Positions 7,133 to 43,812 of a DNA stretch of 64,000 nt are shown here, piece after piece. The translations under genes were made by a program, and so were the position numbers. The stretch covers positions 16,936 through 80,935 of the forward strand of contig JBAXXP010000001.1 of NCBI GenBank assembly GCA_037127815.1. Reading direction: 5' to 3'. Source of the stretch: a bacterium. GTDB taxonomy: Bacteria > Patescibacteriota > Minisyncoccia > Phycocordibacterales > CAIZLB01. Numbering within the stretch: position 1 is the stretch's first letter; every line of letters starts with the position of its first letter. Below the pieces are notes generated by a model that did no database searches, was not told the origin of the DNA, and saw only the letters and a program-made list of their open reading frames with translations.

Positions 7133-8740
7133 TTAGTCAATGAAAGTAAGAGCCTTACCTTTCTTATCACTTCTACCTGTTCTACCAATACGGTGAACAT
7201 AGTCATCATGAGTTTCAGGTAATTCATAGTTAATAACGTGAGATACGTTAGGTATATCAAGTCCACGTGCAGCAACGTCAGTTGCAACAAGCATTTGAAC
7301 TTCACCATCCTTGAAAGACTTTAGAGCACGTTGACGTTGAGTATGAACCTTGTCTCCGTGAATAGATGCTGCTTTGAAACCACGTTCTGCAAGCATTGTT
7401 GTTAGCTTCTCTACACCATGCTTTGTTCTTCCAAAAATAATAACCTTTTGAAATTCTGGATTGATCAATAGATCATGAAGAATATCAATTTTTGTTCCTC
7501 CCTTAACATAGACAACATCTTGATCAACGTTCTTTGCGGTATCTCTAGTTTTAACAGAAATACGAATTGGGTTTTTCAAGAAGTCATTAATGATTCTTTC
7601 AATATCAGGAGACAATGTAGCTGAGAAGAAAAGAGTTTGTCTTTCCTTTGGCATAAGACTCATAACGTATTTCATATCGTTAATGAATCCCATATCAAGC
7701 ATACGGTCAGCCTCATCAAGAACTAAGTTCTTGAAGTTTGAAAGATTTAATTTCTTTCGCTCGATAAGGTCCTTCAGACGTCCTGGAGTTCCAATTATAA
7801 AGTTGTTGAAATATCTTAGTTCAGAAATTTGTCTTCCGATTGGCGCTCCACCAACACAACAAACTGAATAGATTTTTAATCCTTTAATAAAAGATTGTAA
7901 TTCTTGATCAATTTGAATAGCTAGTTCACGAGTTGGGGCCATTATAATAGCCTGCTCATCAGGATTTATAAGAACCTTGTTTATAAGTGGTAAAAGAAAA
8001 GCTGCTGTTTTACCAGTACCTGTATTTGCAATACCTACCAAGTCTTCCCCATTAAGAATATGGGGAATTGTTTTATCTTGAATTGGTGAAGGTGTTATGT
8101 AACCTTTTGCGATTACACTTTTCTTTAGAGTTTCTTCGATTTTAAAATCGCTGAAAGTATTCTCTGGTACGTAAACCTCTACCTTGTCATCAGTTGTAGC
8201 TTTGTTGATGAATCTTGAAACATCAAGACGTGCACCACCTCTTGCTCCACCGCGACCACGGTTACCACCAAAGTTTCCTCTGCCACCGAATCTACTTGCT
8301 CCACCTCCAAATCCACCGCGTGAACCACCGTTTCCTCCGGCGTATCCACCACGACTTCCTGATGAAGCTCCGTATGAAGAACCTCCACCAAAAGATGAAC
8401 CGTCACGTGAACTTGCACGTGAGCTGTATGAAGAACCACCAGATGAACGTCCACCAGCAGATGATCCGCTGTATGAAGAACCACCATGACTTGCGCCAGA
8501 TGTTCCTCTTGATGATCCACCATAAGATGAACCACCACGTGATGCACCGTATGAAGAACCTCCAGATCTTGGGGCGCTTGATGAAGTGCTTTTATTTAAT
8601 GAACCACCGTATACACCAGTAAAAGCAGCGTTACTAGCTGATCTTGGAGCACTAGAACTACGAGGCGCTGATTTACGAGCTCCTCCTGTTGTACCACGAG
8701 TAATATTGTTTCTATTGCTAGAAGTTGTTTTATTATACAT
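7133..8740 (-). CDS. DEAD-box ATP-dependent RNA helicase with a ~185-aa N-terminal Gly/Ser/Tyr/Arg-rich low-complexity extension
   Basis: The helicase core carries the Q-motif (TPSPIQ), motif I ANTGTGKT, motif II DEAD (VLDEADRM), SAT and HRIGRTGR. The N-terminus is (GGSSYG / RGG / SSAPRS)n repeats with no internal Met. Confidence 0.85.
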   Translation of the reverse strand: MYNKTTSSNRNNITRGTTGGARKSAPRSSSAPRSASNAAFTGVYGGSLNKSTSSSAPRSGGSSYGASRGGSSYGGSSRGTSGASHGGSSYSGSSAGGRSSGGSSYSSRASSRDGSSFGGGSSYGASSGSRGGYAGGNGGSRGGFGGGASRFGGRGNFGGNRGRGGARGGARLDVSRFINKATTDDKVEVYVPENTFSDFKIEETLKKSVIAKGYITPSPIQDKTIPHILNGEDLVGIANTGTGKTAAFLLPLINKVLINPDEQAIIMAPTRELAIQIDQELQSFIKGLKIYSVCCVGGAPIGRQISELRYFNNFIIGTPGRLKDLIERKKLNLSNFKNLVLDEADRMLDMGFINDMKYVMSLMPKERQTLFFSATLSPDIERIINDFLKNPIRISVKTRDTAKNVDQDVVYVKGGTKIDILHDLLINPEFQKVIIFGRTKHGVEKLTTMLAERGFKAASIHGDKVHTQRQRALKSFKDGEVQMLVATDVAARGLDIPNVSHVINYELPETHDDYVHRIGRTGRSDKKGKALTFID

Positions 8741-8972
8741 ATTATTTAAGACTCTTTCTAAAAAGAAAGAGGTTTGATTTCCATTTATTTATGGAAAACT
8801 GAATTAGTCTTTAGAGATATACGTAAGGCGACTAGAAATCTCTAAAGTTTCGAAAAGTATATAGTTTGTGTGAAATATCCACGCAAAACCCATGAGAGAT
8901 TAACTTACCCCTGTAGTATGTACTATTTTGATGCTTTTGTCAAATGAGCGATTGGGTGCTTATTGAGCAACC

Positions 8973-8999
8973 AAAAAACCCCGAGATTCGGGGTTTTTT
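8973..8999. terminator. Rho-independent terminator hairpin (CCCCGAG-att-CGGGG) between an A-run and a T-run
   Basis: AAAAAACCCCGAGATTCGGGGTTTTTTGG. Bidirectional by symmetry. It lies downstream of the minus-strand ORF 9024-9221 and the HAD gene. Confidence 0.45.
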
Positions 9000-9023
9000 G
9001 GTGTATTGAGATTAACTCTTTAC

Positions 9024-9221
9024 TTATGCGACTACTTCTTCTGCTGCTGGAGCAACTTCTTCAACTGGGGCTACTTCCTCTGCTGCAACTGTAGCAACTT
9101 CCTCTGTAGGAGCTTCTACTGTAGCATCAGCTGCAACCTCTGCAGAGGCCTCAACTGTAACCTCCGCTGCAACTACTGCATCATCAGCTACACCTGTAAC
9201 AATTGTTTGTTCATCTGTCAT
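9024..9221 (-). CDS. Possible small, highly acidic Ala/Glu/Val-rich protein (65 aa)
   Basis: The ORF sits between the HAD gene and a terminator on the same strand. The protein is pure low complexity (AAEEVAPVEEVAP repeats), so it could be a non-coding artifact. Confidence 0.25.
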   Translation of the reverse strand: MTDEQTIVTGVADDAVVAAEVTVEASAEVAADATVEAPTEEVATVAAEEVAPVEEVAPAAEEVVA

Positions 9222-9289
9222 ATAATTATTATAAGATTAGATATTATTAAAAACGACCAAGGGAGTATACTACACATGTTCTGTATGTA

Positions 9290-10126
9290 CTAATTTATTA
9301 GTTTTTCTATAATTTTTTTTGTCTCCTCCGGTCCACTTACCTGAATACAATCAACACCCGTCATTTTTGCAGCATAGTCATTTCCTCCGGGAAATATTTT
9401 ATCACCAACAAAAACCATCTTGATGATTGGAATCTTCAAGAATTCTTCAAGTTTATGAATTCCATATGCTTTATTCACCCCTTTCATGGTTATATCAATT
9501 GATGTAGATCCACCCATTGATACATCAAAATTTGGAAGTCTCTCCTTAAGAATATCAACTGCAACCTTACGTTTTGCTCCATTTGGATCCCAAGCATTCT
9601 TAAGCTCAAGCGGGGCTTCTTGTCCAAGCGCCGAAAATGTTATTTGTGATTCCCTATCCTCAATAATTTGCCCATATGTTTTTTCTGGAGTTTCTATACC
9701 AGCTTCAAGTAATGCCTCCTTAAGCGTTTTCAAAATAGTTTTTTTGTCATCCTCAGATAAATTTTCTGAATACTCTTCATACCAGACTCCAACTGCACCC
9801 ACTTTTTTTCCGCCAGAATTTTCCCTTTCCCCTTCACGTTCACCAATCATCTTCCAAGAATAAAGTCTGGTACCTGAAGTAGGTAATAAAAATAAATTTT
9901 GAAAGTACTTTGCAGAAAGTTCATCTTTAGGCAAATTTCCTAAAAATTGTTTCTCAAATTGAGCATATTTTCCACCAGAAATAACAGCGACCTTTCTTCC
10001 TTCTAGGAGTTTAATAATTAGGCCTGCCATCTCACTATCCAGTGCAGACTTGCTGGCAGCAAGGGTTCCGTCTAAATCGAAAATGATTAACTCTTTCTCC
10101 AGACTACCTTTATGTTCTAAGCTCAT
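9290..10126 (-). CDS. HAD-superfamily subfamily IIB hydrolase, phosphomannomutase-like
   Basis: 278 aa. Motif I FDLDGTL with the Asp nucleophile, a cap region, and motif IV VGDKIFPGGNDY. The architecture matches HAD-IIB (eukaryotic-type PMM / sugar-phosphate phosphatase). Confidence 0.65.
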   Translation of the reverse strand: MSLEHKGSLEKELIIFDLDGTLAASKSALDSEMAGLIIKLLEGRKVAVISGGKYAQFEKQFLGNLPKDELSAKYFQNLFLLPTSGTRLYSWKMIGEREGERENSGGKKVGAVGVWYEEYSENLSEDDKKTILKTLKEALLEAGIETPEKTYGQIIEDRESQITFSALGQEAPLELKNAWDPNGAKRKVAVDILKERLPNFDVSMGGSTSIDITMKGVNKAYGIHKLEEFLKIPIIKMVFVGDKIFPGGNDYAAKMTGVDCIQVSGPEETKKIIEKLIN

Positions 10127-10127
10127 A

Positions 10128-12032
10128 TTATATTCTTAGTTTATGCAACAAATCCTTCAAAACAATTGTTGCAACGCCAATAACACTGTCTCCTGCTCCA
10201 TAATAAATATAAGCTCTTTCATCTCTTAGAACCAAACTACATGGGAATACAACCTTAGGAACAAGACCATTTAATTCATAAGGATCTTCTGGCTCAAAAA
10301 TTGGAGCTGCAGTTCTTGCTTTTACAATTGTTGGATTTTCTAAATCCAAGAGCACAGCACCCACACGATACGTTTTATTTTTTGAAATACCATGATACAA
10401 AAGAAGCCATCCTTCTTCTGTCTTTATTGGAGGGCCTGCAATACCAACCTTAACACCATCCCACATACCAGGTTGCGGATTCAATACTTCTATACATCTA
10501 CTAATTTTTTCTTTAGTAAAATCAAGTGTTGCAACAAAGTCTGCGCAAATACTTGTGTTAACTCTGTGTATTATCATGTACTTACCACCAATTTTCTCAG
10601 GAAAAATTACAGCGTCTTTATTAGGTATATTTGACGGAGTAATAACATTTGGCATTTCCCAATTATCCCATTTTCTATTCACAAAATCTTCAATAGAAAT
10701 GGAACTTACTGCAACACGCGGGGTAACACCATCATAGGCAGTGTATGTCATGTAAATTCTTCCTTCAATTTCTATAATACGAGGGTCTTCACATCCATAA
10801 TTTCCACTAGCTCCAATGCTTCTTTCAAAATCGGTACGGGGTGAATAAATTGGAGTATTAGGCCTTTCGTCGATTTTTAAACCATCACTACTTACAGCAT
10901 AACCAAGGACAGAGAGATTGGTTGACGATGCTGCTCTGTAGATAATATGAGTTTGACCGTTAATATTAATTGCCGCTGGATTAATTGTTCCACCAGCTTC
11001 CCAAAGAAGCCCTTGTCGTGGAGTGATTATTGGATTCCCAGCAAAGCGCTTAAATTTATGTTCAAGCTTAGAATCCGTCATCATATCCAAAAGATTTTCC
11101 ATATATATAGTAGCTGTAGCACAGTGTGTATCAGCTGCTCCGTAGAATATTTCCAATCTTCCTTCCTTAACTAGTGCTCCTGTTGGAAATACAATATTTA
11201 TAATATGCCCAGTCTTTTCATAATATGTATCAGGCACCATAAATGGACCCTTTGTTCTTCCCACAATACGTCTTGGATCTACTAAATCAAGCAAAACGGC
11301 CTCAACACCAAAAACAGGAGCCGAACTATTGTATTCCTGAATATGTGAATATATAAAAAGCCACCCCTTATCTGTTCTTATTGGAGGTGTCCCCATCTCA
11401 ACCTGTTCATTATCTTTTCTTCTAAGAATTATTTTATGAACATCCATGTGCGCCATCCACTCTATCCACTTATTTTCATTCCACATATCTTCAACGTTAT
11501 CAAACTCTGCATAGCAAATATCGGACATTTTAAGATCTGTATTTACAGTAAGAAGCGCTGCAAACTTTCCATTTATTTTTTCTGGAAACAGGACCATCGC
11601 CTTTGCATTAAAGGGTGTAATAAGGTGTTTCTCCCTAACTGTTTCCAAATCATCAGATATTGCAACAGCAACCTTTATATTGTCCGATGAATATGGGTAA
11701 CCCCCAAGTGCTGTATAAAAAATATAATATGTGTCATCAACCTTGGTAATTCTTGGATCCTCGCAACCAGCTTTATCGTAATCTGTATTTGGACCAAAGA
11801 AAACTTTCCTATCTTCAAAATGCACCCCATCATCTGCTATTCCAACACCAATTACAGAAGTACTTATATACGGGTACAAAAGAAGGTCTGGGCGTGACAT
11901 TGCTCTATAGAAAAGATATGTCTTATCTCCTTTTACTATTGGACACCCATTAAACGATGCGCTAGCCTCCCATGGATGATCCTTAATTGGTGATAATATT
12001 GGATTGTGTTCTGATCTGGTTAATGTAAACAT
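10128..12032 (-). CDS. Tandem (duplicated) GH130-family glycoside phosphorylase, mannoside-phosphorylase-like, two domains in one 634-aa protein
   Basis: Both the N-terminal half (NPILSP...FNGCPIVKGDKTYLFYRA) and the C-terminal half (NPIITPRQ...GTINPAAININGQTHIIYRAASS) carry GH130 (DUF377, 5-bladed beta-propeller) signatures. Single GH130 enzymes are about 320 aa. Confidence 0.75.
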   Translation of the reverse strand: MFTLTRSEHNPILSPIKDHPWEASASFNGCPIVKGDKTYLFYRAMSRPDLLLYPYISTSVIGVGIADDGVHFEDRKVFFGPNTDYDKAGCEDPRITKVDDTYYIFYTALGGYPYSSDNIKVAVAISDDLETVREKHLITPFNAKAMVLFPEKINGKFAALLTVNTDLKMSDICYAEFDNVEDMWNENKWIEWMAHMDVHKIILRRKDNEQVEMGTPPIRTDKGWLFIYSHIQEYNSSAPVFGVEAVLLDLVDPRRIVGRTKGPFMVPDTYYEKTGHIINIVFPTGALVKEGRLEIFYGAADTHCATATIYMENLLDMMTDSKLEHKFKRFAGNPIITPRQGLLWEAGGTINPAAININGQTHIIYRAASSTNLSVLGYAVSSDGLKIDERPNTPIYSPRTDFERSIGASGNYGCEDPRIIEIEGRIYMTYTAYDGVTPRVAVSSISIEDFVNRKWDNWEMPNVITPSNIPNKDAVIFPEKIGGKYMIIHRVNTSICADFVATLDFTKEKISRCIEVLNPQPGMWDGVKVGIAGPPIKTEEGWLLLYHGISKNKTYRVGAVLLDLENPTIVKARTAAPIFEPEDPYELNGLVPKVVFPCSLVLRDERAYIYYGAGDSVIGVATIVLKDLLHKLRI

Positions 12033-12076
12033 GTTTTATTCTTTGGTTATATTTTATTTATTATCGATATCTTTTC

Positions 12077-13207
12077 CTAAACCTTTCCGTAGGTTACCAA
12101 CCAATCTAATAGTGGTTTCAAAGGGGTCTTTGCAACACAAACATGTTTATCACCACCTCCATAATAAACATACAGATCATCATCTTGAAGAATTGCACCT
12201 GAAGCATATACAACACCCGGTTTTTCATCATTCTCATAATTCTCTACAGGCTCAAGTATTGGCGAAGGAGAACGATACAAAATCTTTGTTGGATCTTCAA
12301 AATCCAAAATCATACATCCTAACTTATATTTATTTGGATCACTCTTATCCATTGCGTGGTACAAAAGTAACCAACCGATTTCTGTTCTGATAGGTGGTGA
12401 TCCCGCACCTCTTACCCAATTATCCCACTGATCCTCTCTTCCTCCTGAAGGCGCGGAGCTTTGAATAAATTCTTCATCGATACGATCAATGTCATCAATA
12501 TATCCAATTCTAATTTCTGGAGAAATACTGTGAATTACAGCAAATTTTCCATTTAGCTTTTCTGGAAATAATACCCAATTTTTATTTATGTCTTTTGCAG
12601 ATGAAATAAATTTTGGTTTTTTCCAATTCCATTTTCCTTTTTTAAAATCCTCCATTGAAATAGAGGTCAATGCCATACGCACTGATCCCCAACCTTCAAA
12701 AGCTGTGTAGGTCATGTAAATACGATCACCAATCACAACTGCCCTTGGGTCTTCAGTTCCTCCCCATCCTCCACCAGAAGCGTAAACCATTGGATTATAA
12801 AAATGCGGTCTATCCTCCTCGCATTCATTTTCTATACAAAAAGTTGAGACAGAGACATAAACAGGATAATTATACCTTTCATCAAAAACAATTCCGTCCT
12901 GACTATTTGCATATCCAATACGTGAAAGTCCATCATCCCCCACAGCTCTGTATAACATATGAACAACACCGTCATCATCTTTTATGATTGCAGGGTTGAA
13001 TGTTCCAATGTTCTCCCATTTATTTAGGAGAGAAGGACTTATAACAGGATTGTTTACATTACGATCCAGATGAATACCGTCTACGGAGACTTCTGGAGTC
13101 TTAATTGAGATCTGCTTCTTTCTGAAAATCGAAACGATAAGCACCCCTAGAAATATAATCGCTAATACCCAAAATGGGTTTGTTATTATTTCTTTTAAAT
13201 TAGGCAT
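12077..13207 (-). CDS. GH130-family glycoside phosphorylase with an N-terminal transmembrane anchor
   Basis: 376 aa. Transmembrane helix FWVLAIIFLGVLIVSIF, then a GH130 pattern (NPVISPS...FNPAIIKDDDGVVHMLYRAVG...GTEDPR) homologous to the two domains of the upstream gene. Confidence 0.75.
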   Translation of the reverse strand: MPNLKEIITNPFWVLAIIFLGVLIVSIFRKKQISIKTPEVSVDGIHLDRNVNNPVISPSLLNKWENIGTFNPAIIKDDDGVVHMLYRAVGDDGLSRIGYANSQDGIVFDERYNYPVYVSVSTFCIENECEEDRPHFYNPMVYASGGGWGGTEDPRAVVIGDRIYMTYTAFEGWGSVRMALTSISMEDFKKGKWNWKKPKFISSAKDINKNWVLFPEKLNGKFAVIHSISPEIRIGYIDDIDRIDEEFIQSSAPSGGREDQWDNWVRGAGSPPIRTEIGWLLLYHAMDKSDPNKYKLGCMILDFEDPTKILYRSPSPILEPVENYENDEKPGVVYASGAILQDDDLYVYYGGGDKHVCVAKTPLKPLLDWLVTYGKV

Positions 13208-13213
13208 TTATTT

Positions 13214-13594
13214 TTACTTTACTCTATTGTATTTATCCTCAATACGAACGATGTCTTCCTCATCAAAAGTTCCGTATGCTATTTCTAAAAAAGTGACATT
13301 CTCATCACCAGCTTCAATTCTGTGTAACATCTTTCTAGGAATGAATAGCTCAAGACCTGCTTTTATTTCTATTTTCTCTTCGCCTACTGTAGCTATTCCG
13401 TTACCAGAAAGGATGTACCAGAACTCATCACGCGAATCATGATATTGCAAACTAAAAGCTTGACCACTGTTTACAGTAATAGTCTTTACCGTACAGGGTA
13501 AATTTTCCACAAATTTTACAAAATCACCCCAAGGGCGTTTTTCCTTATATGATTTTGGGGGATTTTCTATTGTAAATTGTGTTGTCATTTGCAT
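13214..13594 (-). CDS. Cupin-fold protein, mannose-6-phosphate isomerase (type II PMI C-terminal domain)-like
   Basis: 126 aa. Cupin motifs (PWGDFVKF, SLQYHDSRDEFWYILSGNG, HRIEAGDENVTFLEI) typical of phosphomannose-isomerase-type cupins. Confidence 0.55.
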   Translation of the reverse strand: MQMTTQFTIENPPKSYKEKRPWGDFVKFVENLPCTVKTITVNSGQAFSLQYHDSRDEFWYILSGNGIATVGEEKIEIKAGLELFIPRKMLHRIEAGDENVTFLEIAYGTFDEEDIVRIEDKYNRVK

Positions 13595-13649
13595 TGATTA
13601 TTATATCACAACGTGCCCTTTTTTTGTCTATTTGTTTGTACTTATTGCA

Positions 13650-14924
13650 TTACCAGGCCTTAATCTTTGTATTTACAAAGATTCTATACTTTTCTAGGTT
13701 GTCTTGTTCTCTTTTGGAGACATTAATGCTTACTGGAATTTTATCAGCATCGAGTGGTAGAACTGTATAATATTTGTTTCCATTTTTGTCTGACCCTCTC
13801 TTTACCCATGTACCCATAAAATCTGGTGTTATAGACAGAGTACTACTGCCATTAACCCTGCTGGGATTAATTTCTTTTGTAATTTCAAGCTTAAGTATTC
13901 CTCCAAGGTCCGTATATGGATTGGTCATTCCAGACACAAAATTTCCAAGTGAATATATAACTAGACACTTTTCACCATTAGTACTTTTCAAAAATGTTAT
14001 AGGTTCCAGTACATGAGGATGATCTCCTAGAACAATATTTGCACCACTGTTACATGCCAGCTGTGCAAGTTCTCGTTGAGATGCATTCTCTTGTAATTTA
14101 TACTCTACCCCAAAATGTAATGCTGTCACAATTACATCAACATTTTGTTTTTTTAAATCATTTATGTCCCTTACTATTTGCTCTTTATTAATATATGAAA
14201 GCATTCCAGATTTACTTTTAGGTAATGTTAGGCCGTTTGTATCATAAGTATATGAAACAAAACCAAATTTAAGTCCGTTCTTTTCAGTAATTTGATAATT
14301 AGAAATAGGTGAAACAATTCCATTTGGTAATGAACTTGTGCCAGATAGAGCAATTTTAGTATCGGGCTGAATTCTAGCACCCAATCCAATTAAGCCAGAA
14401 TTCTCGACATTCTTAATTGTATTCGTAAGGCCTACAACACCCCTATCGAGCGCGTGATTATTTGCCAAAGACACATGAGTAAAATAATTATTTTTTAATT
14501 CAGTTAATATTTCTGCAGGAGCATTAAACCTTGGATACCCAGAGTATTTTAATTCCTTTCCTGCAATTGGCGTTTCTAAATTAGCATAAACAATATCCGC
14601 ATTATTTAAATACGGTTTTATGTTTACAAAAAAACTTGAGAAATCATATTTACCATTTTTTTTATTATAAGTAGCATCAAGTTGTGCCTGATGCATCATA
14701 ATATCTCCAACAGCGAGAAGCGTCACCTTTCTAACCACTGGGGCCGGCTCAACTTGTTTTATAGAGTCAGCTCCCGCAACCTGCGCGGAGAGACTTGATT
14801 CTACTTTTTTAAAATATTTACCATATTGTGTGTTTACAAAAAAACCTCCGATTATGAAAACAGCTGTTGCTGTTAGGTAAAATGCATAATGACTAATTCT
14901 TCCTGATTGATTTTTGAGTATCAT
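13650..14924 (-). CDS. CapA/PgsA-family metallophosphatase (poly-gamma-glutamate capsule synthesis-like), membrane-anchored
   Basis: 424 aa. N-terminal transmembrane helix, then LLAVGDIMMH, NLETP and ANNHALDRG motifs of the CapA (YwtB) calcineurin-like family. Confidence 0.7.
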   Translation of the reverse strand: MILKNQSGRISHYAFYLTATAVFIIGGFFVNTQYGKYFKKVESSLSAQVAGADSIKQVEPAPVVRKVTLLAVGDIMMHQAQLDATYNKKNGKYDFSSFFVNIKPYLNNADIVYANLETPIAGKELKYSGYPRFNAPAEILTELKNNYFTHVSLANNHALDRGVVGLTNTIKNVENSGLIGLGARIQPDTKIALSGTSSLPNGIVSPISNYQITEKNGLKFGFVSYTYDTNGLTLPKSKSGMLSYINKEQIVRDINDLKKQNVDVIVTALHFGVEYKLQENASQRELAQLACNSGANIVLGDHPHVLEPITFLKSTNGEKCLVIYSLGNFVSGMTNPYTDLGGILKLEITKEINPSRVNGSSTLSITPDFMGTWVKRGSDKNGNKYYTVLPLDADKIPVSINVSKREQDNLEKYRIFVNTKIKAW

Positions 14925-14941
14925 TTTATATTATATCTTTA

Positions 14942-15505
14942 TTATTCAGCTTCATTAAAATTTTCAGCATTTTGAATCATAAATTCCCGAACACTTTTTA
15001 ATGCAATATTTCGCATTGCAAAAGAAGACCTTTCTTCATCTAACATTTCGGCGTATGTTTTATCATATCCATCTGGAATGAATATAGATGACCAGCCAAA
15101 ACTATTTGTGCCCTTTGGTGAATCAGAAATAGTACCAGACATTGATCCATCAAATAGATGAACAGTTTCTCCATCGCAAAAACCATAGCAAACTTTAGCT
15201 GTACATCTCCTATCTTTTCCATCAATAAGTCTACAAAGGCCTTCATTTTCAAGTTCTTTTAAAAACCATTTAATTAGTGGGCCAGGCAGTTTTCCCAAGG
15301 CATGAAAAACAAAAGAGACATCCTCCACAAGAACAGGTTTTCCAATTTTACTATATGCACGCAAAGCTTTATCTTTTACAATTTCTTCTAGATCTAAAGA
15401 TTGTATTTCTTCCAAATCAAGTGAATGATGGTCTATTTCAAGACCTAGGTACCTACTAACCTCTTCGGCCTTTCCAGCATTTCCAGTTATAAAGGTTATT
15501 TTCAT
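14942..15505 (-). CDS. rdgB: Non-canonical purine NTP pyrophosphatase (dITP/XTP pyrophosphatase, RdgB/Ham1 family)
   Basis: 187 aa. N-terminal ITGNAGKAEE and the Ham1-family substrate loop. Typical size. Confidence 0.8.
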   Translation of the reverse strand: MKITFITGNAGKAEEVSRYLGLEIDHHSLDLEEIQSLDLEEIVKDKALRAYSKIGKPVLVEDVSFVFHALGKLPGPLIKWFLKELENEGLCRLIDGKDRRCTAKVCYGFCDGETVHLFDGSMSGTISDSPKGTNSFGWSSIFIPDGYDKTYAEMLDEERSSFAMRNIALKSVREFMIQNAENFNEAE

Positions 15506-15553
15506 ACATTTAATATATCATATAACACCCCGGGGAAGAACTTCTTTTTAATG

Positions 15554-16279
15554 CTAAAGTTTACTGTATAGTAATTTAAAAATTTTAGTTTGAAACTGAG
15601 CAATCATCTCATTTTCTATAACAATTGCTGTCTTACTATTATAATCAATCAAAGCCACCTTATTTCCATAAATGATTTGAGTAATATTTAAATCAAATAA
15701 ATTATAACTATTTGGTACCGTTCTGACAGATCTGCCAAGTTTTGCATGACCAGCATTTTTTGAGGATTCATCTGTAATAACTAATCTTTCAAGGGATTTC
15801 CTATCTCTTATAATTTTATAATCTGCCGGAACATATTTTTTGCGGGATAATGTCAGTCCAGAACTGTATCTATAATAGATAGCGTTTTTGGGTAAACTAT
15901 GTACAACATCTGAAAACACAGCCTTGATTGCACTATCACCTTCTGTAAAGGTAACGATTGGTTTCTTGTCTCTCATTTTATAAGTCTCATGAAGTTCATG
16001 GATCTCCGCATTAAAGTTATCCTCCAAATCATTAAAAAGTTTTTCTAGCTTTTCTGGAGATTCTGCAACATACAACTTATACTTACCTTTTGGCATAGCA
16101 TTAACTAACCCCAAACTAGATAGATTTGGTAATGCCTTATAAACAGTTGGCCTATGTAATTTTGTCTCTCTTATAATATCTGAAATAGAAGCAGGACCTA
16201 GTTTCAAAAGACCCTTATAAATCAAGGCTTCTTCTTTACTCATCCCTATTTGTTCCAGTACAGTTTTGTTTATTTTCAT
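15554..16279 (-). CDS. TrmB-family sugar-responsive transcriptional regulator (wHTH + C-terminal sensor domain)
   Basis: N-terminal EQIGMSKEEALIYKGLLKLGPASISDIIRETKLHRPTVYKAL matches the TrmB winged helix. The start is placed at MKINKT, residue 19 of the track ORF that ends at 16333. Confidence 0.6.
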   Translation of the reverse strand: MKINKTVLEQIGMSKEEALIYKGLLKLGPASISDIIRETKLHRPTVYKALPNLSSLGLVNAMPKGKYKLYVAESPEKLEKLFNDLEDNFNAEIHELHETYKMRDKKPIVTFTEGDSAIKAVFSDVVHSLPKNAIYYRYSSGLTLSRKKYVPADYKIIRDRKSLERLVITDESSKNAGHAKLGRSVRTVPNSYNLFDLNITQIIYGNKVALIDYNSKTAIVIENEMIAQFQTKIFKLLYSKL

Positions 16280-16452
16280 AAGTTGTAATGTTTTGTTACA
16301 ACTTAATATATCACTATTAACTATGTAAATCAAGGGTGCTACAGCAGGCTCTCTGTTTAATGTACAAATTTTAGCATTTTCAAATACAAGTTTGTTGATT
16401 TGAACTATAGTTTAATCAGAAAAGAAATTAACAATTAACAGCAAACAAAACC

Positions 16453-17364
16453 ATGAAAAACAAAATCGAAAACACTAGGGTTAAGCAAATTGGGAATATC
16501 ATTCTTCAAAACCTTGTTCCACAGGCAATACAAATAATTCAAGATGAATGTCATGACCTGACTATAATCAAGAAGGTTGGCTATGATGGAGTGAAGCCTG
16601 ACCTTGCAACTAATGGTGACAGAAAAGCACAGGAAATGTACATGCGAGAAATCGCCAAACACTTCCCTGACTTTGGAATCATCGCCGAGGAAGATGGGGT
16701 TGCCTTTGATGGCAAAGATAATGGCGAGGATGGAGAGAAGGGCGAAGATATATATTTCACTATTGATCCACTAGATGGAACCAAGGCGTATGAACGTGGT
16801 GCAGGACAAGGTGTTGGAACAATGATTGCCCTCTGTAAAGACAACGATGTCATTGCAGCTTACATCGGCGACGCAAACACTGGTGAGACATACGGTTTTG
16901 CAGACATGGAAAAAAGAGGCGCAGCCATAAGGCAAAGATTTGGTGTAACAACCAACTTAAAGCCCAGAACTGATAAACCTCTAGCTGAACAATATGTACT
17001 CTTGCGTGAAATGCCTCGCAAGCAACCCGAGTTAATTAATAAAATGATTAACGATATAACAGCAGGTGGGCTATTTAAGGACGCTGAGGTTACAGGAGGA
17101 AGTATTGGTACAGCTTTTGCAAGGTTGTGGAAGGGAGAGGTTGGAGCGATGGTTCTTCAGCCAGGATTCAATACACCATGGGATCTTGCTCCAACACTTG
17201 GTATTAGCCGTAGGCTTGGCTACAAGTTTTTCAAACTTTTAGATGGTAAACTCATTGAGAATGAGCCAATGCTTACAAAGACTGTTGTTGAGAAACCATA
17301 CACAGAAATTGTTGTCCATGAAGCTCATGAAAAGGAATTGATGGAGTGGTTGAAGGTTAATTAA
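16453..17364 (+). CDS. Inositol monophosphatase / FBPase-like Li-sensitive phosphatase superfamily protein
   Basis: 303 aa. IIAEEDG, the metal-binding DPLDGT, and the WD(L)AP motif (NTPWDLAP). Confidence 0.7.
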   Translation: MKNKIENTRVKQIGNIILQNLVPQAIQIIQDECHDLTIIKKVGYDGVKPDLATNGDRKAQEMYMREIAKHFPDFGIIAEEDGVAFDGKDNGEDGEKGEDIYFTIDPLDGTKAYERGAGQGVGTMIALCKDNDVIAAYIGDANTGETYGFADMEKRGAAIRQRFGVTTNLKPRTDKPLAEQYVLLREMPRKQPELINKMINDITAGGLFKDAEVTGGSIGTAFARLWKGEVGAMVLQPGFNTPWDLAPTLGISRRLGYKFFKLLDGKLIENEPMLTKTVVEKPYTEIVVHEAHEKELMEWLKVN

Positions 17365-29899: not shown

Positions 29900-29961
29900 T
29901 GCAGAAAAATAATCACAAAAAAAAGAGCCCTATTGCTAGGACTCTTTTTATTGTTTCTTTG

Positions 29962-30033
29962 CGCGGCTGATGGGTGCTGACCCCACGGCCTCTCCCGTGA
30001 CAGGGGAGTGCTCTACCGTTGAGCTACAGCCGC
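29962..30033 (-). tRNA. tRNA-Asp (anticodon GUC). CCA not encoded. Unusual T-loop (GTCAGCA)
   Basis: GCGGCTGTAGCTCAACGGTAGAGCACTCCCCTGTCACGGGAGAGGCCGTGGGGTCAGCACCCATCAGCCGCG. The anticodon loop CTGTCAC matches E. coli tRNA-Asp, and the discriminator is G. Confidence 0.7.
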
Positions 30034-30632
30034 ATTTTCATGAATCCTTCGAAAATAAGCTTTTTTCTGTCCAGATAAAGCTTACTCGTCGTATTATACA
30101 TGATTTTATAAATTTTCAAAGAGTCTCGGGTACTATACTGTAATCTACTATAATTTCCACTTCTAAGGTTAAATAAACTTCCACCGTCCAAACCTAAAGA
30201 ATTAAGCATATTAAATAGATTATTTAAGAACATTTTACTAGCAGAAGTAAAGGCTACAAACATCACGGATGTTGGTTTTTTTCTTGTTTTATTAGTATGC
30301 CCTACCCAGATATTTCCATCCCCATCAAAATACCCTCTAATAAAATCTCCTTCATATTTTTTTGGAATGGTAGGAATATCCATTCTTAATGACTTATTTG
30401 GGGTAAGTCCAAGGAGTACAAGGTCATTAAACATTTCTTTGCTTCCAATTTGGACCCTATATACAGACCCCGTTTCTGATTTTATTTCAGATATTTTATG
30501 TGGTAATTTCATTACTTCAGCAATAGAAATAAGAAGTTCCCTGTCAGCCGTATAGAAAGAGATAAAATGAGTATTTCTTTTAGTTTTAATTATGTTACCA
30601 TCTGCAAATAAAAAACCTAAAATATAAGCCAT
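30024..30632 (-). CDS. Free-standing double-motif LAGLIDADG homing endonuclease
   Basis: 202 aa. Motif 1 LGFLFADGNI and motif 2 IRGYFDGDGNI are spaced about 100 aa apart, typical of monomeric two-domain LAGLIDADG enzymes. The 3' end overlaps the first ~10 nt of tRNA-Asp. Confidence 0.8.
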   Translation of the reverse strand: MAYILGFLFADGNIIKTKRNTHFISFYTADRELLISIAEVMKLPHKISEIKSETGSVYRVQIGSKEMFNDLVLLGLTPNKSLRMDIPTIPKKYEGDFIRGYFDGDGNIWVGHTNKTRKKPTSVMFVAFTSASKMFLNNLFNMLNSLGLDGGSLFNLRSGNYSRLQYSTRDSLKIYKIMYNTTSKLYLDRKKLIFEGFMKMRL

Positions 30633-30740
30633 GTTAGGCGACCATTTTTTGAAAAAGTTGTTGTTGTTAATTTTAAATACTGGAGTGGTATTATTATATA
30701 TTCGAAAAAATTAATGACAATTGCGAACATTAAAAAAGTG

Positions 30741-30814
30741 TGTCGACGGGAGGGATCGAACCTCCGACCTTGGGCTTATGAGTCCCACGCTCTAACCAAC
30801 TGAGCTACGTCGAC
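30741..30814 (-). tRNA. tRNA-Met (anticodon CAU), elongator-type or tRNA-Ile2-type (G1-C72 paired). CCA not encoded
   Basis: GTCGACGTAGCTCAGTTGGTTAGAGCGTGGGACTCATAAGCCCAAGGTCGGAGGTTCGATCCCTCCCGTCGACA. Anticodon loop CTCATAA. Confidence 0.75.
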
Positions 30815-30941
30815 GTACAGACACTATAATACAAAAACACCTAATTTTCAAGCTTTATAGAAGGCTCTATTTTATGCATTTTTTACGATTAATATCTACC
30901 CAGCAAAAAAGCCCCTATTAGGAGCTTTTTTTTTTAAATTG

Positions 30942-31012
30942 TTGCGGAGTCCGGAATTGCACCGGATCTACAAGGTTATGAGCCTCGCGTGCGACTGTAA
31001 CACTCCCCCGCA
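30942..31012 (-). tRNA. Atypical tRNA-like gene with a CAU anticodon loop. The D-loop lacks GG and the T-loop is TGCAATT
   Basis: TGCGGGGGAGTGTTACAGTCGCACGCGAGGCTCATAACCTTGTAGATCCGGTGCAATTCCGGACTCCGCAA folds into a cloverleaf with a 7-bp acceptor stem (U1-A72, one G.U) and anticodon loop CTCATAA. The D and T loops are non-canonical. Confidence 0.4.
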
Positions 31013-34929: not shown

Positions 34930-35238
34930 TTAGCCGAGAATTTTCTTAACCTCCACCAATCCATCTTGATGCTTTGGAGCAGCCTCTACCAGCTTTTGTG
35001 GAACTGGATTAAGCAATTGATCAGCAACATCATCTCTCATTACATTTCTATGAGAAAGATCCGATGGGTTTTTAATTGAAGCGCTTGTAGTATCAGCACC
35101 TTCTGTCACCTCTTGTATTTGATCTACATACTTCAGAATATGGCTTATCTCCGTAGCGTATTGCTCAGCCTCTTCATTTGCAACCTTAATACGTGCAAGG
35201 CTAGCCAATTTTTGTATATCTTCTGATGTGATTGTCAT
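34930..35238 (-). CDS. gatC: Asp-tRNA(Asn)/Glu-tRNA(Gln) amidotransferase subunit C
   Basis: 102 aa. A GatC-like helical N-terminus (LASLARIKVANEEAEQY..ISHILKYVDQI) sits directly upstream of gatA. Confidence 0.7.
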   Translation of the reverse strand: MTITSEDIQKLASLARIKVANEEAEQYATEISHILKYVDQIQEVTEGADTTSASIKNPSDLSHRNVMRDDVADQLLNPVPQKLVEAAPKHQDGLVEVKKILG

Positions 35239-35343
35239 GTTTGTTATAGTAGCATTATTGGGACGATTTTCAAATGTCGAGGTCTGGTGAGACTTAGGCC
35301 TATCTTCATAAAATGTAGTACATTTTATTAAAATTAAACTCTA

Positions 35344-35601
35344 CTAATAAAGTTCGCTATGCGAACCAATTTCGACTAGAATAACCACATCTTTCTGACT
35401 TTTATCAAAAATAACTCTAACATCCCCTGTTACATTCAAACTCCATAAATCCTTTAACTTACCAGATAGTCTATGAATATTTAGAGACCTATCACCTGAG
35501 TCTTTTATAAAAATTCCTATTCTAGCCCTGAACTCATTTTTAATTCTTTGGTCCTGTTTTTTAAATTGCTTATCAAATTTATTGGTAGTGGTTATTATCA
35601 T
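35344..35601 (-). CDS. Type II toxin-antitoxin toxin, RelE/ParE superfamily (YafQ-like mRNA interferase)
   Basis: 85 aa. KFDKQFKK...IKNEFRARIGIFIKD...SLNIHRLSGKLKDLWSLNVTGDVRVIF matches the YafQ/RelE pattern, including the conserved catalytic-region His/Arg. Confidence 0.6.
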   Translation of the reverse strand: MIITTTNKFDKQFKKQDQRIKNEFRARIGIFIKDSGDRSLNIHRLSGKLKDLWSLNVTGDVRVIFDKSQKDVVILVEIGSHSELY

Positions 35602-35629
35602 TAGTAAGGTTCATTATGACGACTAGAGA

Positions 35630-35896
35630 TTAAGAATTAAGATGCTTCATTAAATCATTGGTATTATCAAATGGGCCCGAGGTTTTACCTTCTTTATATT
35701 CTTTCCTTGCTTCAACAATTAAAGACTCTAAACGTGGTGTTATGGTTGTTGATGTAGAAAATTCAAGCTGACCAGTTCTTGCAAATTGCTTTAGTGTTGC
35801 GTTCACTATTGAACTCAAAGACAGCCCTAGATCAAAGGCTCTTTGCTGGGCTTGTACCTTTACATCATTATCTATCTTTAGATTGACCTGTGTTTT
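35630..35896 (-). CDS. Type II antitoxin, RelB/DinJ family (ribbon-helix-helix)
   Basis: MKTQVNLKIDNDVKVQAQQRAFDLGLSLSSIVNATLKQFA resembles the DinJ N-terminus (RIDEDLKNQA..VLAGMGLTISDLVRITL). It lies immediately upstream of the toxin. The start is taken at the internal Met of the track ORF. Confidence 0.6.
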   Translation of the reverse strand, partial: KTQVNLKIDNDVKVQAQQRAFDLGLSLSSIVNATLKQFARTGQLEFSTSTTITPRLESLIVEARKEYKEGKTSGPFDNTNDLMKHLNS

Positions 35897-35943
35897 CATA
35901 TACCATAAGTATATACTTATGGTAGCGTGAGTCAAGTCAACTA

Positions 35944-38091
<2,148 letters not shown>

Positions 38092-38164
38092 TTAACACAA
38101 TTTAAGCACGGGGTCAGTCACGACGGCACTCAAACACCCAATAGTCATACATAGTCCTAAATCA

Positions 38165-38797: not shown

Positions 38798-38818
38798 ATT
38801 GTAATTATATTACTTAAA

Positions 38819-39478: not shown

Positions 39479-39483
39479 ATTTA

Positions 39484-40125: not shown

Positions 40126-40167
40126 TTTTTTATTATTTACTATTTTTCAATAGAACCTCACATTATT

Positions 40168-40869: not shown

Positions 40870-40910
40870 TAGCTATATTGTAACACAACAGAAAACAAGA
40901 AAATAGTAAA

Positions 40911-41915: not shown

Positions 41916-41948
41916 ACTCGGTTTTTAATTCTCCCAAACTATGTCAAA

Positions 41949-43792: not shown

Positions 43793-43812
43793 CTTTTTTA
43801 GATTTGTTTAAA

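What the first reader, a model, noticed from the sequence alone, without database searches (positions are those of the whole stretch)
9290..13594. Complete beta-mannoside phosphorolysis-to-fructose-6-phosphate route encoded by three GH130 domains, a HAD-IIB PMM-like enzyme and a cupin PMI
The gene order on the minus strand is HAD-IIB (phosphomannomutase-like), a 634-aa protein made of two GH130 domains in tandem, a third membrane-anchored GH130, and a small cupin of the mannose-6-phosphate-isomerase type. GH130 enzymes phosphorolyse beta-mannosides to mannose-1-phosphate. A PMM would then yield mannose-6-phosphate, and a PMI would yield fructose-6-phosphate. For a reduced genome this is a notable dedicated carbohydrate-salvage module. 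It may target host or partner N-glycans or mannans. The TM-anchored GH130 would place its catalytic domain outside the membrane, which is odd for a phosphorylase. The fused double GH130 is also unusual.
Basis: partly seen in the sequence, partly recalled or inferred. Interest (0 to 1): 0.5.

Follow-up and report, generated by a model that had tools for sequence, protein, structure and literature searches.

The report
Conserved Patescibacteria beta-1,2-mannoside operon
Four tightly packed genes, conserved in many ultra-small Patescibacteria, appear to link beta-1,2-linked mannose chains to the central metabolite fructose-6-phosphate inside the cell, but only one of the three GH130 domains looks like a standard phosphorylase.

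Summary
The four ORFs sit at the stated coordinates and match HAD-IIB/PMM, GH130 x2, GH130 with an N-terminal TM helix, and a PMI-type cupin.

(1) All three GH130 domains are closest to the Thermoanaerobacter beta-1,2-mannoside phosphorylases (GH130_6). All carry the Glu/Lys pair that marks beta-1,2 linkage, so N-glycan or plant beta-1,4-mannan targets are unlikely.

(2) Only the C-terminal domain of the fusion has the canonical phosphate-binding Arg/His pair. The N-terminal domain has Leu-Thr at that site. The membrane-anchored enzyme has His-Ser, and none of 105 orthologues has Arg or Lys there.

(3) In 100 of 100 TM-bearing homologues the positive charges follow the helix. The catalytic domain therefore faces the cytoplasm, not the outside.

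(4) The HAD protein's nearest solved relative is the Lactococcus alpha-phosphoglucomutase PgmH (35% identity), ahead of the eukaryotic PMMs.

(5) The double GH130 is not a one-off. At least 538 species genomes encode relatives, and all four genes are present near one another in 48 of 65 loci with enough context. Other lineages fuse the GH130 types in other orders, including a triple fusion.

No importer accompanies the operon, so its direction (salvage or turnover of a self-made mannoside) is open. It is a new variant of a known kind.

The parts
13214..13594 (-). 126-aa single-domain cupin of the type II phosphomannose-isomerase kind (first gene of the operon)
   Evidence: PF01050 scores 64.8 bits against a cut-off of 23.6 and covers profile positions 13-116 of 116. 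TIGR01479 GMP_PMI matches only its C-terminal positions 360-467. The motifs RPWG, SLQYH..RDEFW, IPR...HRIEAG and DIVR.EDKYGR are conserved in 64 orthologues. The gene is present in 54 of 65 loci with context.
12077..13207 (-). 376-aa membrane-tethered GH130 ('HS-type'): N-terminal TM helix plus a beta-propeller that lacks the canonical phosphate-binding Arg
   Evidence: PF04041 scores 138 bits. The best solved relatives are Teth514_1788 and Teth514_1789 (Foldseek TMt 0.81-0.84). EDPR, K209, H226, R266 and H284 are conserved. The canonical Arg position is S227, and it is S67/G25/A8/T3/N2 across 105 orthologues.
13109..13177 (-). TM helix (residues about 11-33) of the HS-type GH130, predicted N-out/C-in
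   Evidence: The AlphaFold model has a helix at 11-33. Flanking K+R counts average 0.22 on the N side and 5.09 on the C side. The C side is higher in 100 of 100 TM-bearing homologues.
11067..12032 (-). N-terminal GH130 domain of the 634-aa fusion ('LT-type', residues 1-322)
   Evidence: Matches 7fip at 3e-48. N28, R43, E91-D92, K144 and D301 are invariant. The canonical His-Arg is replaced by L161-T162, followed by a 5-aa insertion. The [KR]xG residue is replaced by Q210 (H or Q in the family), with an invariant E212 two residues on. The His is displaced by one position (Y228-S229-H230). A helical insertion lies at 180-199.
10128..11066 (-). C-terminal GH130 domain of the fusion ('HR-type', residues 323-634, plus stop codon): canonical beta-1,2-mannoside phosphorylase signature
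   Evidence: 40% identical to Teth514_1788 (phmmer 1.7e-61). N351, R366, E415-D416, K472, H489-R490, K528, H547 and D615 are invariant in 48 homologues.
9290..10126 (-). 278-aa HAD-IIB phosphohexomutase of the PgmH/eukaryotic-PMM family (last gene of the operon)
   Evidence: PF03332 and TIGR01484 both score above their cut-offs. The best solved relative is 4bnd, Lactococcus lactis alpha-phosphoglucomutase, at 1e-32 and 35% identity over 244 aa. PMM2 follows at 1e-15. The motifs DxDGT, SGG and GDK..GGNDY are conserved. The gene is present in 52 of 65 loci with context.

Best explanation
The four genes form an operon conserved across Paceibacteria-type Patescibacteria. It connects beta-1,2-linked mannosides to fructose-6-phosphate entirely inside the cell.

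Proposed steps:
- The C-terminal ('HR-type') domain of the fused protein is a canonical inverting GH130 phosphorylase: Man-beta1,2-R + Pi <-> alpha-Man-1-P + R.
- The PgmH/PMM-type HAD mutase interconverts Man-1-P and Man-6-P.
- The small type-II-PMI cupin interconverts Man-6-P and Fru-6-P.

All steps are reversible.

The other two GH130 domains are the 'LT-type' N-terminal half of the fusion and the 'HS-type' enzyme tethered to the cytoplasmic face of the membrane. Both keep the catalytic Asp and the mannose and +1-site ligands, but both lack the canonical phosphate-binding Arg. They most likely perform a different step on the same glycan. Candidates are chain-length-specific phosphorolysis using a relocated Arg, Man-1-P- or GDP-Man-dependent elongation, or hydrolysis.

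The operon has no importer, beta-1,2-mannosides are rare in the environment, and the operon is conserved in genomes recovered from many different samples. For these reasons I favour turnover of a self-made, possibly membrane-proximal, beta-1,2-mannoside pool over digestion of foreign N-glycans or plant mannan.

Shown: domain identities, active-site signatures, predicted topology, synteny and gene fusions. Inferred: substrates, sugar specificity of the mutase and the cupin, and direction of flux.
For: - Family and closest structures: (GH130_6 enzymes Teth514_1788 and Teth514_1789; TMt up to 0.90).
- Beta-1,2 signature: the Glu next to the catalytic Asp and the Lys 18 residues before the Arg site are 100% conserved in all three domains. 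The criterion comes from PMC7660257 and PMC4599007.
- Full phosphate-binding set in the C-terminal domain only.
- Cytoplasmic orientation of the TM enzyme. The fusion protein starts like cytosolic Teth514_1789 and has no leader.
- Mutase family.
- PMI-type cupin.
- Operon conservation. A second GH130 gene is adjacent in 65 of 65 loci, the cupin in 54, the HAD gene in 52, and all four in 48.
- Gene fusions link the three GH130 types: HS+LT+HR triple (P0361), TM+HS+HR (P0399) and HR+LT in reversed order (P0368).
- No importer appears among the recurrent neighbours. The recurrent co-directional extras are PAP2/PAP2_C membrane proteins, an MsbA/glucan-exporter-like ABC protein and an RfaE-II-like sugar-1-P nucleotidyltransferase.
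- Published data: loss of the equivalent Arg (R202A in Uhgb_MS) lowers phosphorylase activity 16-fold, and beta-1,2 GH130 phosphorylases also use GDP-Man weakly (PMC12814180).
Against: - No enzyme of these three Patescibacteria GH130 types, nor this HAD protein or cupin, has been assayed.
- The nearest characterised HAD relative is an alpha-phosphoglucomutase. From my memory of Neves et al. 2006, which I could not retrieve here, it does not act on mannose phosphates.
- The HS-type and LT-type domains each have a family-specific invariant Arg nearby (R257; R204/R205). These could replace the missing canonical Arg, so both may still be ordinary phosphorylases.
- No GDP-mannose pyrophosphorylase is present in the 64-kb window, and no glycan product is known from any Patescibacterium.
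- The envelope-type neighbours each occur in 10% of loci or fewer.
- Known bacterial GH130 systems are catabolic.
Confidence: 0.5

Rival explanations
1. Pure salvage. The cell takes up beta-1,2-manno-oligosaccharides released from a host or neighbour. All three GH130 domains phosphorolyse them, with different chain-length preferences. Man-1-P is then funnelled through the mutase and isomerase to Fru-6-P without spending ATP.
For: - The characterised relatives Teth514_1788 and Teth514_1789 are a pair of phosphorylases with different chain-length specificity in a catabolic/salvage cluster (PMC4264767).
- The PMM-plus-PMI pairing fits a route to glycolysis.
- Patescibacteria are scavengers with reduced genomes.
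- Family-specific invariant Arg residues (R257 in HS-type, R205 in LT-type) could restore phosphate binding.
Against: - No transporter or binding protein lies in or next to the operon in any of 84 loci examined. The Thermoanaerobacter cluster, by contrast, carries an ABC importer (PMC4264767).
- Beta-1,2-mannosides are rare in the environment, yet the operon is conserved in at least 538 species genomes.
- Two of the three domains fail the Arg/His phosphorylase criterion.
- N-glycan or beta-1,4-mannan targets are contradicted by the Glu/Lys pair.
Confidence: 0.3
2. Biosynthesis only. The HS-type and LT-type GH130 domains act as beta-1,2-mannosyltransferases, like Leishmania GT108 MTP1/2 or the weak transferase activity of GH130 beta-1,2 enzymes. 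They build an envelope or membrane-linked glycan at the inner face of the membrane. The cupin and the mutase supply Man-1-P from Fru-6-P.
For: - The canonical Arg is lost in two domains. The published decision tree assigns 'short L2 loop with only three phosphate contacts' to transferases with little or no phosphorylase activity (PMC12814180). In GT108, replacing the equivalent Arg with His abolishes phosphorylase activity (PMC10913872).
- The HS-type enzyme is tethered to the cytoplasmic face of the membrane.
- Occasional adjacent PAP2 (undecaprenyl-diphosphatase-like), PAP2_C, MsbA/glucan-exporter-like ABC and RfaE-II-like nucleotidyltransferase genes.
Against: - The C-terminal domain keeps a complete, invariant phosphorylase site.
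- No ManC/GMP gene lies in the window or in the conserved operon.
- Transferase activity of the GH130 enzymes tested so far is weak and of doubtful physiological relevance (PMC12814180).
- Foldseek places the models far from GT108 (E 1e-8 to 1e-10, against 1e-26 for GH130_6).
Confidence: 0.15
3. There is no linear pathway. The HAD protein is the cell's housekeeping alpha-phosphoglucomutase and the cupin is not an isomerase (for example a sugar-binding or regulatory cupin). Their linkage to the GH130 genes then reflects co-regulation, not consecutive reactions.
For: - The best solved relative of the HAD protein is the alpha-PGM PgmH, at 1e-32 against 1e-15 for PMM2. The protein shares PgmH's Lys and Gln where PMM2 has Arg21 and Arg134 (the PMM2 residue numbers are my own count from the alignment and recall, not a tool output or a paper read here).
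- No stand-alone cupin of this size turned up as a characterised PMI in the PDB search.
Against: - The HAD gene is in the operon in 52 of 65 genomes and the cupin in 54 of 65, in two alternative gene orders.
- The cupin matches PF01050 over its full length and keeps the motifs of type II PMI domains.
- 35% identity to PgmH is too low to transfer sugar specificity.
Confidence: 0.1

Closest known systems
Thermoanaerobacter sp. [quoted passage not shown]
   Same: These are the best sequence and structure matches for all three domains (33-40% identity; TMt 0.81-0.90). They share the Asn/Asp/Asp mannose ligands, the Glu/Lys beta-1,2 pair and a short L2 loop. They are cytosolic, and several GH130 paralogues lie side by side.
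   Different: The Thermoanaerobacter enzymes are single-domain and both carry His-Arg. Their cluster has an ABC importer, a GH5, a Man-1-P guanylyltransferase and a GT4, and no PMM or PMI. Here there is a fused pair plus a membrane-tethered paralogue, two of the three domains lack the Arg, a HAD mutase and a cupin accompany them, and there is no transporter.
Bacteroides fragilis / Ruminococcus albus mannan catabolic route (GH130_1 and GH130_2 phosphorylases feeding Man-1-P to PMM and PMI)
   Same: The same pathway logic: phosphorolysis to Man-1-P, then Man-6-P, then Fru-6-P.
   Different: Those enzymes are beta-1,4-specific, with the Tyr/Arg pair, and match far more weakly here (E 1e-10 to 1e-25). 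From my general knowledge, that route uses an alpha-D-phosphohexomutase-type PMM and a type I PMI, and works together with importers and an epimerase.
Leishmania mannogen cycle (GT108 MTP1-7; PMC10913872, PMC12814180)
   Same: A family of paralogous five-bladed propellers acts on beta-1,2-mannan inside the cell. Some keep the phosphate-binding Arg (phosphorylase/transferase) and some have lost it (strict transferases). PMM and PMI connect the pool to Fru-6-P, and the organism is a parasite with streamlined metabolism.
   Different: The similarity is structural only and distant (13-16% identity; Foldseek E 1e-8 to 1e-10). GT108 replaces the Arg with His, whereas here it is Ser/Gly/Ala or Thr. 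No mannan has been shown in Patescibacteria.
Lactococcus lactis PgmH (alpha-phosphoglucomutase, HAD superfamily; PDB 4BND)
   Same: Best solved relative of the HAD protein (1e-32; 35% identity over 244 aa). It shares the DxDGT, SGG and GD...GGNDY motifs and the cap residues Lys, Arg, Gln and Lys.
   Different: PgmH is a housekeeping glucose-phosphate mutase. From memory it is inactive on mannose phosphates. The Patescibacteria protein is embedded in a mannoside operon, and its specificity is untested.
GH130_3 beta-1,2-mannosidases (BT3780, BACOVA_03624; PMC4599007)
   Same: They share the Glu/Lys beta-1,2 pair, and the basic phosphate ligands are lost, as in the LT-type and HS-type domains.
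   Different: The hydrolases replace the basic residues with Glu and are predicted to be secreted (signal peptides in that meta-node; PMC7660257). Here the replacements are Thr, Ser, Gln or His, the proteins are cytoplasmic, and the similarity is lower (59-73 bits against 147-168 for GH130_6).

Membership tests
CAZy GH130 (Pfam PF04041) | Five-bladed beta-propeller matching the family profile above its gathering score | tested here: met
   339 bits in two stretches for the fusion and 138 bits for the TM protein, against a cut-off of 26. AlphaFold models superpose on GH130 structures with TMt 0.81-0.90.
GH130 catalytic core | Proton-donor Asp (UhgbMP D104) and -1 mannose ligands (Teth514_1788 Asn28, Asp92, Asp281) | tested here: met
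   N28/D92/D301, N351/D416/D615 and N71/D153/D353 are invariant in 48-52 homologues of each protein.
GH130 glycoside phosphorylase (criteria of PMC7660257) | Phosphate-binding Arg/His pair (UhgbMP R168/H231) - C-terminal domain of the fusion | tested here: met
   H489-R490 and H547 are invariant, as is K528 at the third basic position.
GH130 glycoside phosphorylase (criteria of PMC7660257) | Phosphate-binding Arg/His pair - N-terminal ('LT-type') domain of the fusion | tested here: not met
   L161-T162 replace His-Arg (T in 116 of 120, S in 4 of 120). The His is displaced by one residue (Y-S-H230). The third basic position is Q or H. Two of the three phmmer alignments that span this stretch instead place K168, in a 5-aa insertion, opposite a target Arg (7fip and 1vkd), while the third (5b0p) places T162 there.
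GH130 glycoside phosphorylase (criteria of PMC7660257) | Phosphate-binding Arg/His pair - membrane-tethered ('HS-type') enzyme | tested here: not met
   The Arg position is S227, and it is S67/G25/A8/T3/N2 across 105 orthologues, never K or R. H284 and R266 are retained.
GH130 glycoside phosphorylase (criteria of PMC7660257) | No signal peptide; intracellular location | tested here: met
   The fusion has no N-terminal hydrophobic segment. The TM enzyme has K+R counts of 0.22 before and 5.09 after the helix, with the C side higher in 100 of 100. This is a positive-inside-rule inference, not an experiment.
Beta-1,2-specific GH130 | Glu next to the catalytic Asp, and Lys at the UhgbMP R150 position (E/K pair) | tested here: met
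   E91/K144, E415/K472 and E152/K209 are 100% conserved.
NCBIfam NF052550 beta-1,2-mannobiose phosphorylase (equivalog) | Score at or above the curated cut-off of 450 bits | tested here: not met
   440.8 bits summed over two domains for the fusion, and 198.9 bits for the TM protein.
GH130_3 beta-1,2-mannosidases | Carboxylate residues (BT3780 E227, E268) replacing the basic phosphate ligands; secretion signal | tested here: inconclusive
   There is no Glu at the aligned Arg or Lys positions. The LT-type domain does have invariant D166 and E212 two to four residues away. The BT3780 sequence could not be obtained for a direct residue map. NF058598 scores 198 and 85 bits against a cut-off of 550.
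GT108 mannosyltransferase/phosphorylases | Sequence or profile membership | tested here: not met
   There is only distant fold similarity (13-16% identity; E 1e-8 to 1e-10).
HAD-IIB PMM/PgmH phosphohexomutases | PF03332 and TIGR01484 above cut-off; DxDGT nucleophile motif; GDxxxxGGND motif; C2B cap with basic residues | tested here: met
   The motifs are 90-100% conserved in 120 orthologues.
Phosphomannomutase (EC 5.4.2.8) function | Man-1-P <-> Man-6-P activity | not testable with these tools
   The nearest characterised relative is an alpha-PGM. The operon context is the only argument for mannose phosphates.
Type II phosphomannose isomerase domain | PF01050 above gathering score over the full profile | tested here: met
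   64.8 bits against a cut-off of 23.6, covering profile positions 13-116 of 116. The motifs are conserved in 64 orthologues. Enzyme activity cannot be tested here.
Bifunctional GMP/PMI (TIGR01479) | N-terminal guanylyltransferase domain plus C-terminal PMI domain | tested here: not met
   Only profile positions 360-467 match, at 63 bits against a cut-off of 373. The protein is 126 aa long.

The most novel reading that the evidence does not exclude
Patescibacteria make and recycle an intracellular or membrane-proximal beta-1,2-mannan: a bacterial counterpart of Leishmania mannogen. They would do so with a three-part GH130 machine: an Arg-less membrane-tethered enzyme and an Arg-less 'LT' domain for priming, elongation or trimming, and a canonical phosphorylase domain for mobilisation. 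A HAD-type mutase and a mini-PMI would buffer the pool against Fru-6-P. This would be a carbon and energy reserve in cells thought to have almost no storage metabolism, evolved independently of GT108.
Probability: 0.25. Interest if true: 0.8.

Novelty: new variant of a known kind. Interest (0 to 1): 0.5.

Why it matters
Patescibacteria make up a large share of bacterial diversity, and their carbon metabolism is poorly understood. An operon found in hundreds of their genomes is likely to be central to their physiology. This one devotes three differentiated GH130 domains, a mutase and an isomerase to beta-1,2-mannosides.

The operon also offers GH130 enzymologists natural, strongly conserved variants that lack the canonical phosphate-binding arginine. 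These occur fused to, or next to, a canonical phosphorylase. That makes them a ready-made system for asking how phosphorylase, transferase and hydrolase chemistries partition within this fold.

Finally, the analysis corrects two likely annotation errors: that the target is N-glycans or plant mannan, and that the membrane-anchored enzyme is extracellular.

Tried and rejected
- Promoter and terminator scan of 8700-16500: counts were at shuffle level, so it was uninformative.
- Rfam and tRNA scans of the window: nothing in the operon.
- Literature searches for GH130 in CPR/Patescibacteria found only a passing mention in one Microgenomates genome paper (PMC7143001). Searches for Patescibacteria or Parcubacteria with PMM, PMI or Man-1-P found nothing relevant. 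'DUF377' returned unrelated papers.
- The PgmH primary paper (PubMed 16980299) is not held. Its statement on substrate specificity therefore rests on my memory.
- The supplementary residue tables of PMC12814180 are not held.
- I could not obtain the BT3780 sequence to map its catalytic-base glutamates residue by residue. PDB chain ids are not accepted by protein comparison, and the hydrolases never rank in the five alignments shown. The spacing argument (E227 to E268 is 41 residues, against 38 from R490 to K528) is only a hint.
- The idea that the N-terminal domain is a dead pseudo-enzyme was rejected. Its catalytic Asp, mannose ligands and many other residues are invariant across 120 homologues.
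- The idea that the TM segment is a cleaved signal peptide was rejected. There is no positive n-region, and the charges follow the hydrophobic core.
- The TrmB regulator, PGA_cap, Ham1 and IMPase-like genes next to the operon in this window are not conserved neighbours in other genomes. I do not count them as parts of the operon.

Full report
**Observation**

The four ORFs lie on the minus strand exactly where stated: 13214-13594 (126 aa), 12077-13207 (376 aa), 10128-12032 (634 aa) and 9290-10126 (278 aa). The gaps between them are 6, 44 and 1 bp, so they read as one transcription unit in the order cupin, TM-GH130, double GH130, HAD.

- PF01050 (MannoseP_isomer) plus Cupin_2 for the 126-aa protein.
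- PF04041 (GH130) once in the 376-aa protein and twice in the 634-aa protein.
- PF03332 (PMM) and TIGR01484 (HAD-IIB) for the 278-aa protein.

AlphaFold2 models built on 48-52 homologues are confident. The fusion has pLDDT 93 and pTM 0.87, which means two propellers in a defined mutual orientation. The 376-aa protein has pLDDT 88, with a helix at residues 11-33 followed by one propeller.

**Which GH130 enzymes are these**

By sequence and by structure, all three domains are closest to Teth514_1788 and Teth514_1789. [quoted passage not shown] Identity is 33-40% and TMt is 0.81-0.90. Lin0857 and Uhgb_MS come next, then the GH130_3 mannosidases, then the beta-1,4 phosphorylases, with GT108 far behind.

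Published criteria (PMC7660257, PMC4599007, PMC4264767, PMC12814180) define these features:
- the proton donor (UhgbMP D104);
- the -1 mannose ligands (Asn, Asp, Asp);
- the linkage determinants (Tyr/Arg for beta-1,4, Glu/Lys for beta-1,2, Glu/Arg for beta-1,3);
- the phosphate ligands (R168 and H231, plus a third basic residue).

I aligned 120 homologues of the fusion and 105 of the TM protein. All three domains keep the donor Asp, the mannose ligands, the +1 Arg and the Glu/Lys pair without exception. They are therefore beta-1,2-type mannoside enzymes.

**Three different active-site types**

- *HR-type.* The C-terminal half of the fusion has the complete phosphorylase set: H489-R490, K528 and H547, all invariant.
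- *HS-type.* The TM protein has Ser at the Arg position. Across 105 orthologues that position is S67/G25/A8/T3/N2 and never basic. It keeps R266 and H284.
- *LT-type.* The N-terminal half of the fusion has L161-T162 instead of His-Arg, followed by a 5-residue insertion. It has Q or H at the K528 position, an invariant E212 two residues later, a His displaced by one residue, and an extra helical insertion.

A search of 1.84 billion representatives shows that LT-type is a clade of its own and also exists as stand-alone proteins of about 325 aa.

By the Arg/His rule of PMC7660257, only one of the three domains qualifies as a phosphorylase. In Uhgb_MS the equivalent R202A mutation lowers phosphorylase activity 16-fold. 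The authors' decision tree assigns 'short L2 loop with three phosphate contacts' to transferases with weak or no phosphorylase activity (PMC12814180). In GT108, Arg-to-His abolishes phosphorylase activity (PMC10913872).

There is a caveat. Both divergent types carry family-specific invariant arginines close by (R257 in HS-type; R204/R205 in LT-type). These might substitute for the missing Arg. I had no coordinates to check this, so the chemistry of these two domains stays open.

**Topology**

Of 120 homologues, 100 have an N-terminal hydrophobic segment. K+R counts in the 15 flanking residues average 0.22 on the N side and 5.09 on the C side, and the C side is higher in 100 of 100.

By the positive-inside rule this is an N-out/C-in anchor and not a signal peptide. 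The propeller is tethered to the cytoplasmic face of the membrane. This removes the 'odd for a phosphorylase' problem.

In some lineages the helix is replaced by a degenerate GH130-like domain.

**Mutase and isomerase**

The HAD protein's best solved relative is Lactococcus lactis alpha-phosphoglucomutase PgmH (4BND; 1e-32; 35% identity over 244 residues). The eukaryotic PMMs follow at 1e-15 and weaker.

The protein has the DxDGT, SGG and GDK..GGNDY motifs. It shares PgmH's Lys and Gln where PMM2 has Arg21 and Arg134; these PMM2 residue numbers are my own count from the alignment and recall. Mannose specificity is inferred only from operon context. From memory, PgmH itself is glucose-specific; that paper was not retrievable.

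The cupin matches PF01050 over its full length. It keeps the RPWG, SLQYH..RDEFW, HR and DIVR.EDKYGR motifs in 64 orthologues. It corresponds to the C-terminal PMI domain of bifunctional GMP/PMI enzymes without the guanylyltransferase part.

**Distribution and linkage**

The window comes from a Patescibacteria MAG. The gene content is typical (type IV pili, GatCAB and similar), and identical proteins are named 'bacterium', Paceibacterota or Parcubacteria.

The 120 best homologues of the fusion are all 595-672 aa with 93-100% query coverage (100% for all but three). A scan of one genome per species found at least 538 genomes encoding relatives. The best 80 are all full-length doubles, most of them titled as Paceibacteria- or Parcubacteria-type lineages: Taylor-, Nomura-, Zambryski-, Adler-, Campbell-, Wolfe- and Moranii-bacteria. 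Some records carry other titles, namely 'uncultured Candidatus Saccharibacteria', 'uncultured bacterium', TM6 and Omnitrophota.

In the 65 loci with enough flanking DNA:
- a second GH130 gene is adjacent in 65 (61 single-domain HS-type, 4 a second double);
- the cupin is present in 54;
- the HAD gene is present in 52;
- all four are present in 48, in two gene orders.

Fusions tie the three GH130 types together independently: LT+HR (the common form), HR+LT (P0368), TM+HS+HR (P0399) and HS+LT+HR in one 971-aa chain (P0361). In CAZy, by contrast, only 4 GH130-GH130 sequences were known among 1592 (PMC7660257). I found no paper describing this operon.

**Mechanism and direction**

The well-supported core is as follows. 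An HR-type domain interconverts beta-1,2-mannosides plus Pi with alpha-Man-1-P. A PgmH/PMM-type mutase and a PMI-type cupin then connect Man-1-P to Fru-6-P. All of this happens in the cytoplasm, and all steps are reversible.

Sequence cannot say which way the flux runs. Arguments against simple salvage:
- No importer or binding protein lies in or beside the operon in any of 84 loci, unlike the Thermoanaerobacter cluster.
- Beta-1,2-mannosides are environmentally rare, yet the operon is conserved across species recovered from many different samples.
- Two of the three domains have non-canonical phosphate sites.
- One enzyme is membrane-tethered on the inside.
- The only recurrent co-directional extras are PAP2/PAP2_C membrane proteins, an MsbA/glucan-exporter-like ABC protein, an RfaE-II-like sugar-1-P nucleotidyltransferase and a sensor kinase. 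Each of these occurs in 10% of loci or fewer.

I therefore favour turnover of a self-made beta-1,2-mannoside pool (0.5 for the overall model). Pure salvage of imported beta-1,2-mannosides is the main rival (0.3). Biosynthesis only (0.15) and 'not a linear pathway' (0.1) are the minor rivals.

**Comparison and novelty**

The pathway logic is known from Bacteroides and Ruminococcus (beta-1,4) and Thermoanaerobacter (beta-1,2). The idea of paralogous propellers partitioned into Arg-containing and Arg-less forms around a beta-1,2-mannan recalls the Leishmania mannogen system.

What is new here:
- a phylum-wide operon;
- the obligate pairing or fusion of three distinct GH130 active-site types;
- an inward-facing membrane tether;
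- a HAD-type rather than alpha-D-phosphohexomutase-type mutase;
- a stand-alone mini-PMI.

This is a new variant of a known kind, of moderate interest now. Interest would be high if an endogenous mannan reserve were demonstrated.

**Limits**

- There is no biochemical evidence.
- The hydrolase reference sequence could not be aligned directly.
- The rest of this genome could not be searched for ManC or transporters.
- Topology rests on the positive-inside rule.

Noticed in passing
window 1-64000: GC skew is negative in 29 of 32 2-kb bins, and almost all ORFs of 110 aa or more lie on the minus strand. A similar strand-composition disparity was reported for Microgenomates of order UBA1400 (PMC7143001).
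   Followed up: no
window 7133-8740 (-): This DEAD-box helicase carries an N-terminal low-complexity tail of about 190 aa, rich in Ser, Gly and Arg.
   Followed up: no
window 9024-9221 (-): A 65-aa acidic Ala/Glu/Val-repeat ORF lies just downstream of the HAD gene. It is called as a gene on the contigs of this species that extend past the HAD gene. It has no Pfam match and is not seen in other species' loci.
   Followed up: partly
window 9290-10126 (-), residues about 93-112: The HAD mutase of this species has a 20-aa insertion (MIGEREGERENSGGKKVGAV) that is absent from most of the 120 orthologues, which are mostly about 250 aa long.
   Followed up: partly
window 54428-54515 (+): ARAGORN calls a tRNA-Ser with anticodon ACT. 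Rfam's tRNA model does not report it at gathering score, so it may be a false positive or an unusual tRNA.
   Followed up: no
window 30024-30632 (-): A weak LAGLIDADG_3-like ORF lies among tRNA genes (tRNA-Asp at 29961-30033; two tRNA-Met at 30740-31012).
   Followed up: no
P0361, P0399, P0368, P0362, P0184 (proteins from other metagenomes): Other GH130 architectures exist: HS+LT+HR triple fusion (971 aa), TM+HS+HR (697 aa), HR+LT in reversed order, LT+HR plus about 400 aa of unknown sequence, and a degenerate GH130-like domain fused to an HS-type domain in place of the TM helix.
   Followed up: partly
L009, L010, L022, L030, L031, L034, L045, L050 (directly upstream of the cupin); L038, L056, L057, L059, L073, L081 (adjacent to the operon: downstream in five, upstream in L038): PAP2_C-type and PAP2 (undecaprenyl-diphosphatase-like) membrane proteins are co-directional and immediately adjacent to the operon in 14 loci. 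In a few others an MsbA/glucan-exporter-like ABC protein, or an RfaE-domain-II-like nucleotidyltransferase, takes that place.
   Followed up: partly
window 15554-16333 (-) and 13650-14924 (-): A TrmB-family sugar regulator and a PGA_cap (CapA-like) protein lie upstream of the operon in this species only. They are not conserved neighbours elsewhere.
   Followed up: partly
window 38000-50200: There is a large type IV pilus/T2SS-like cluster: PilM, two T2SSE ATPases, T2SSF, a prepilin peptidase and several N_methyl pilins. A RelB/YafQ toxin-antitoxin pair sits next to gatC, just upstream of this cluster, at about 35000-35900.
   Followed up: no
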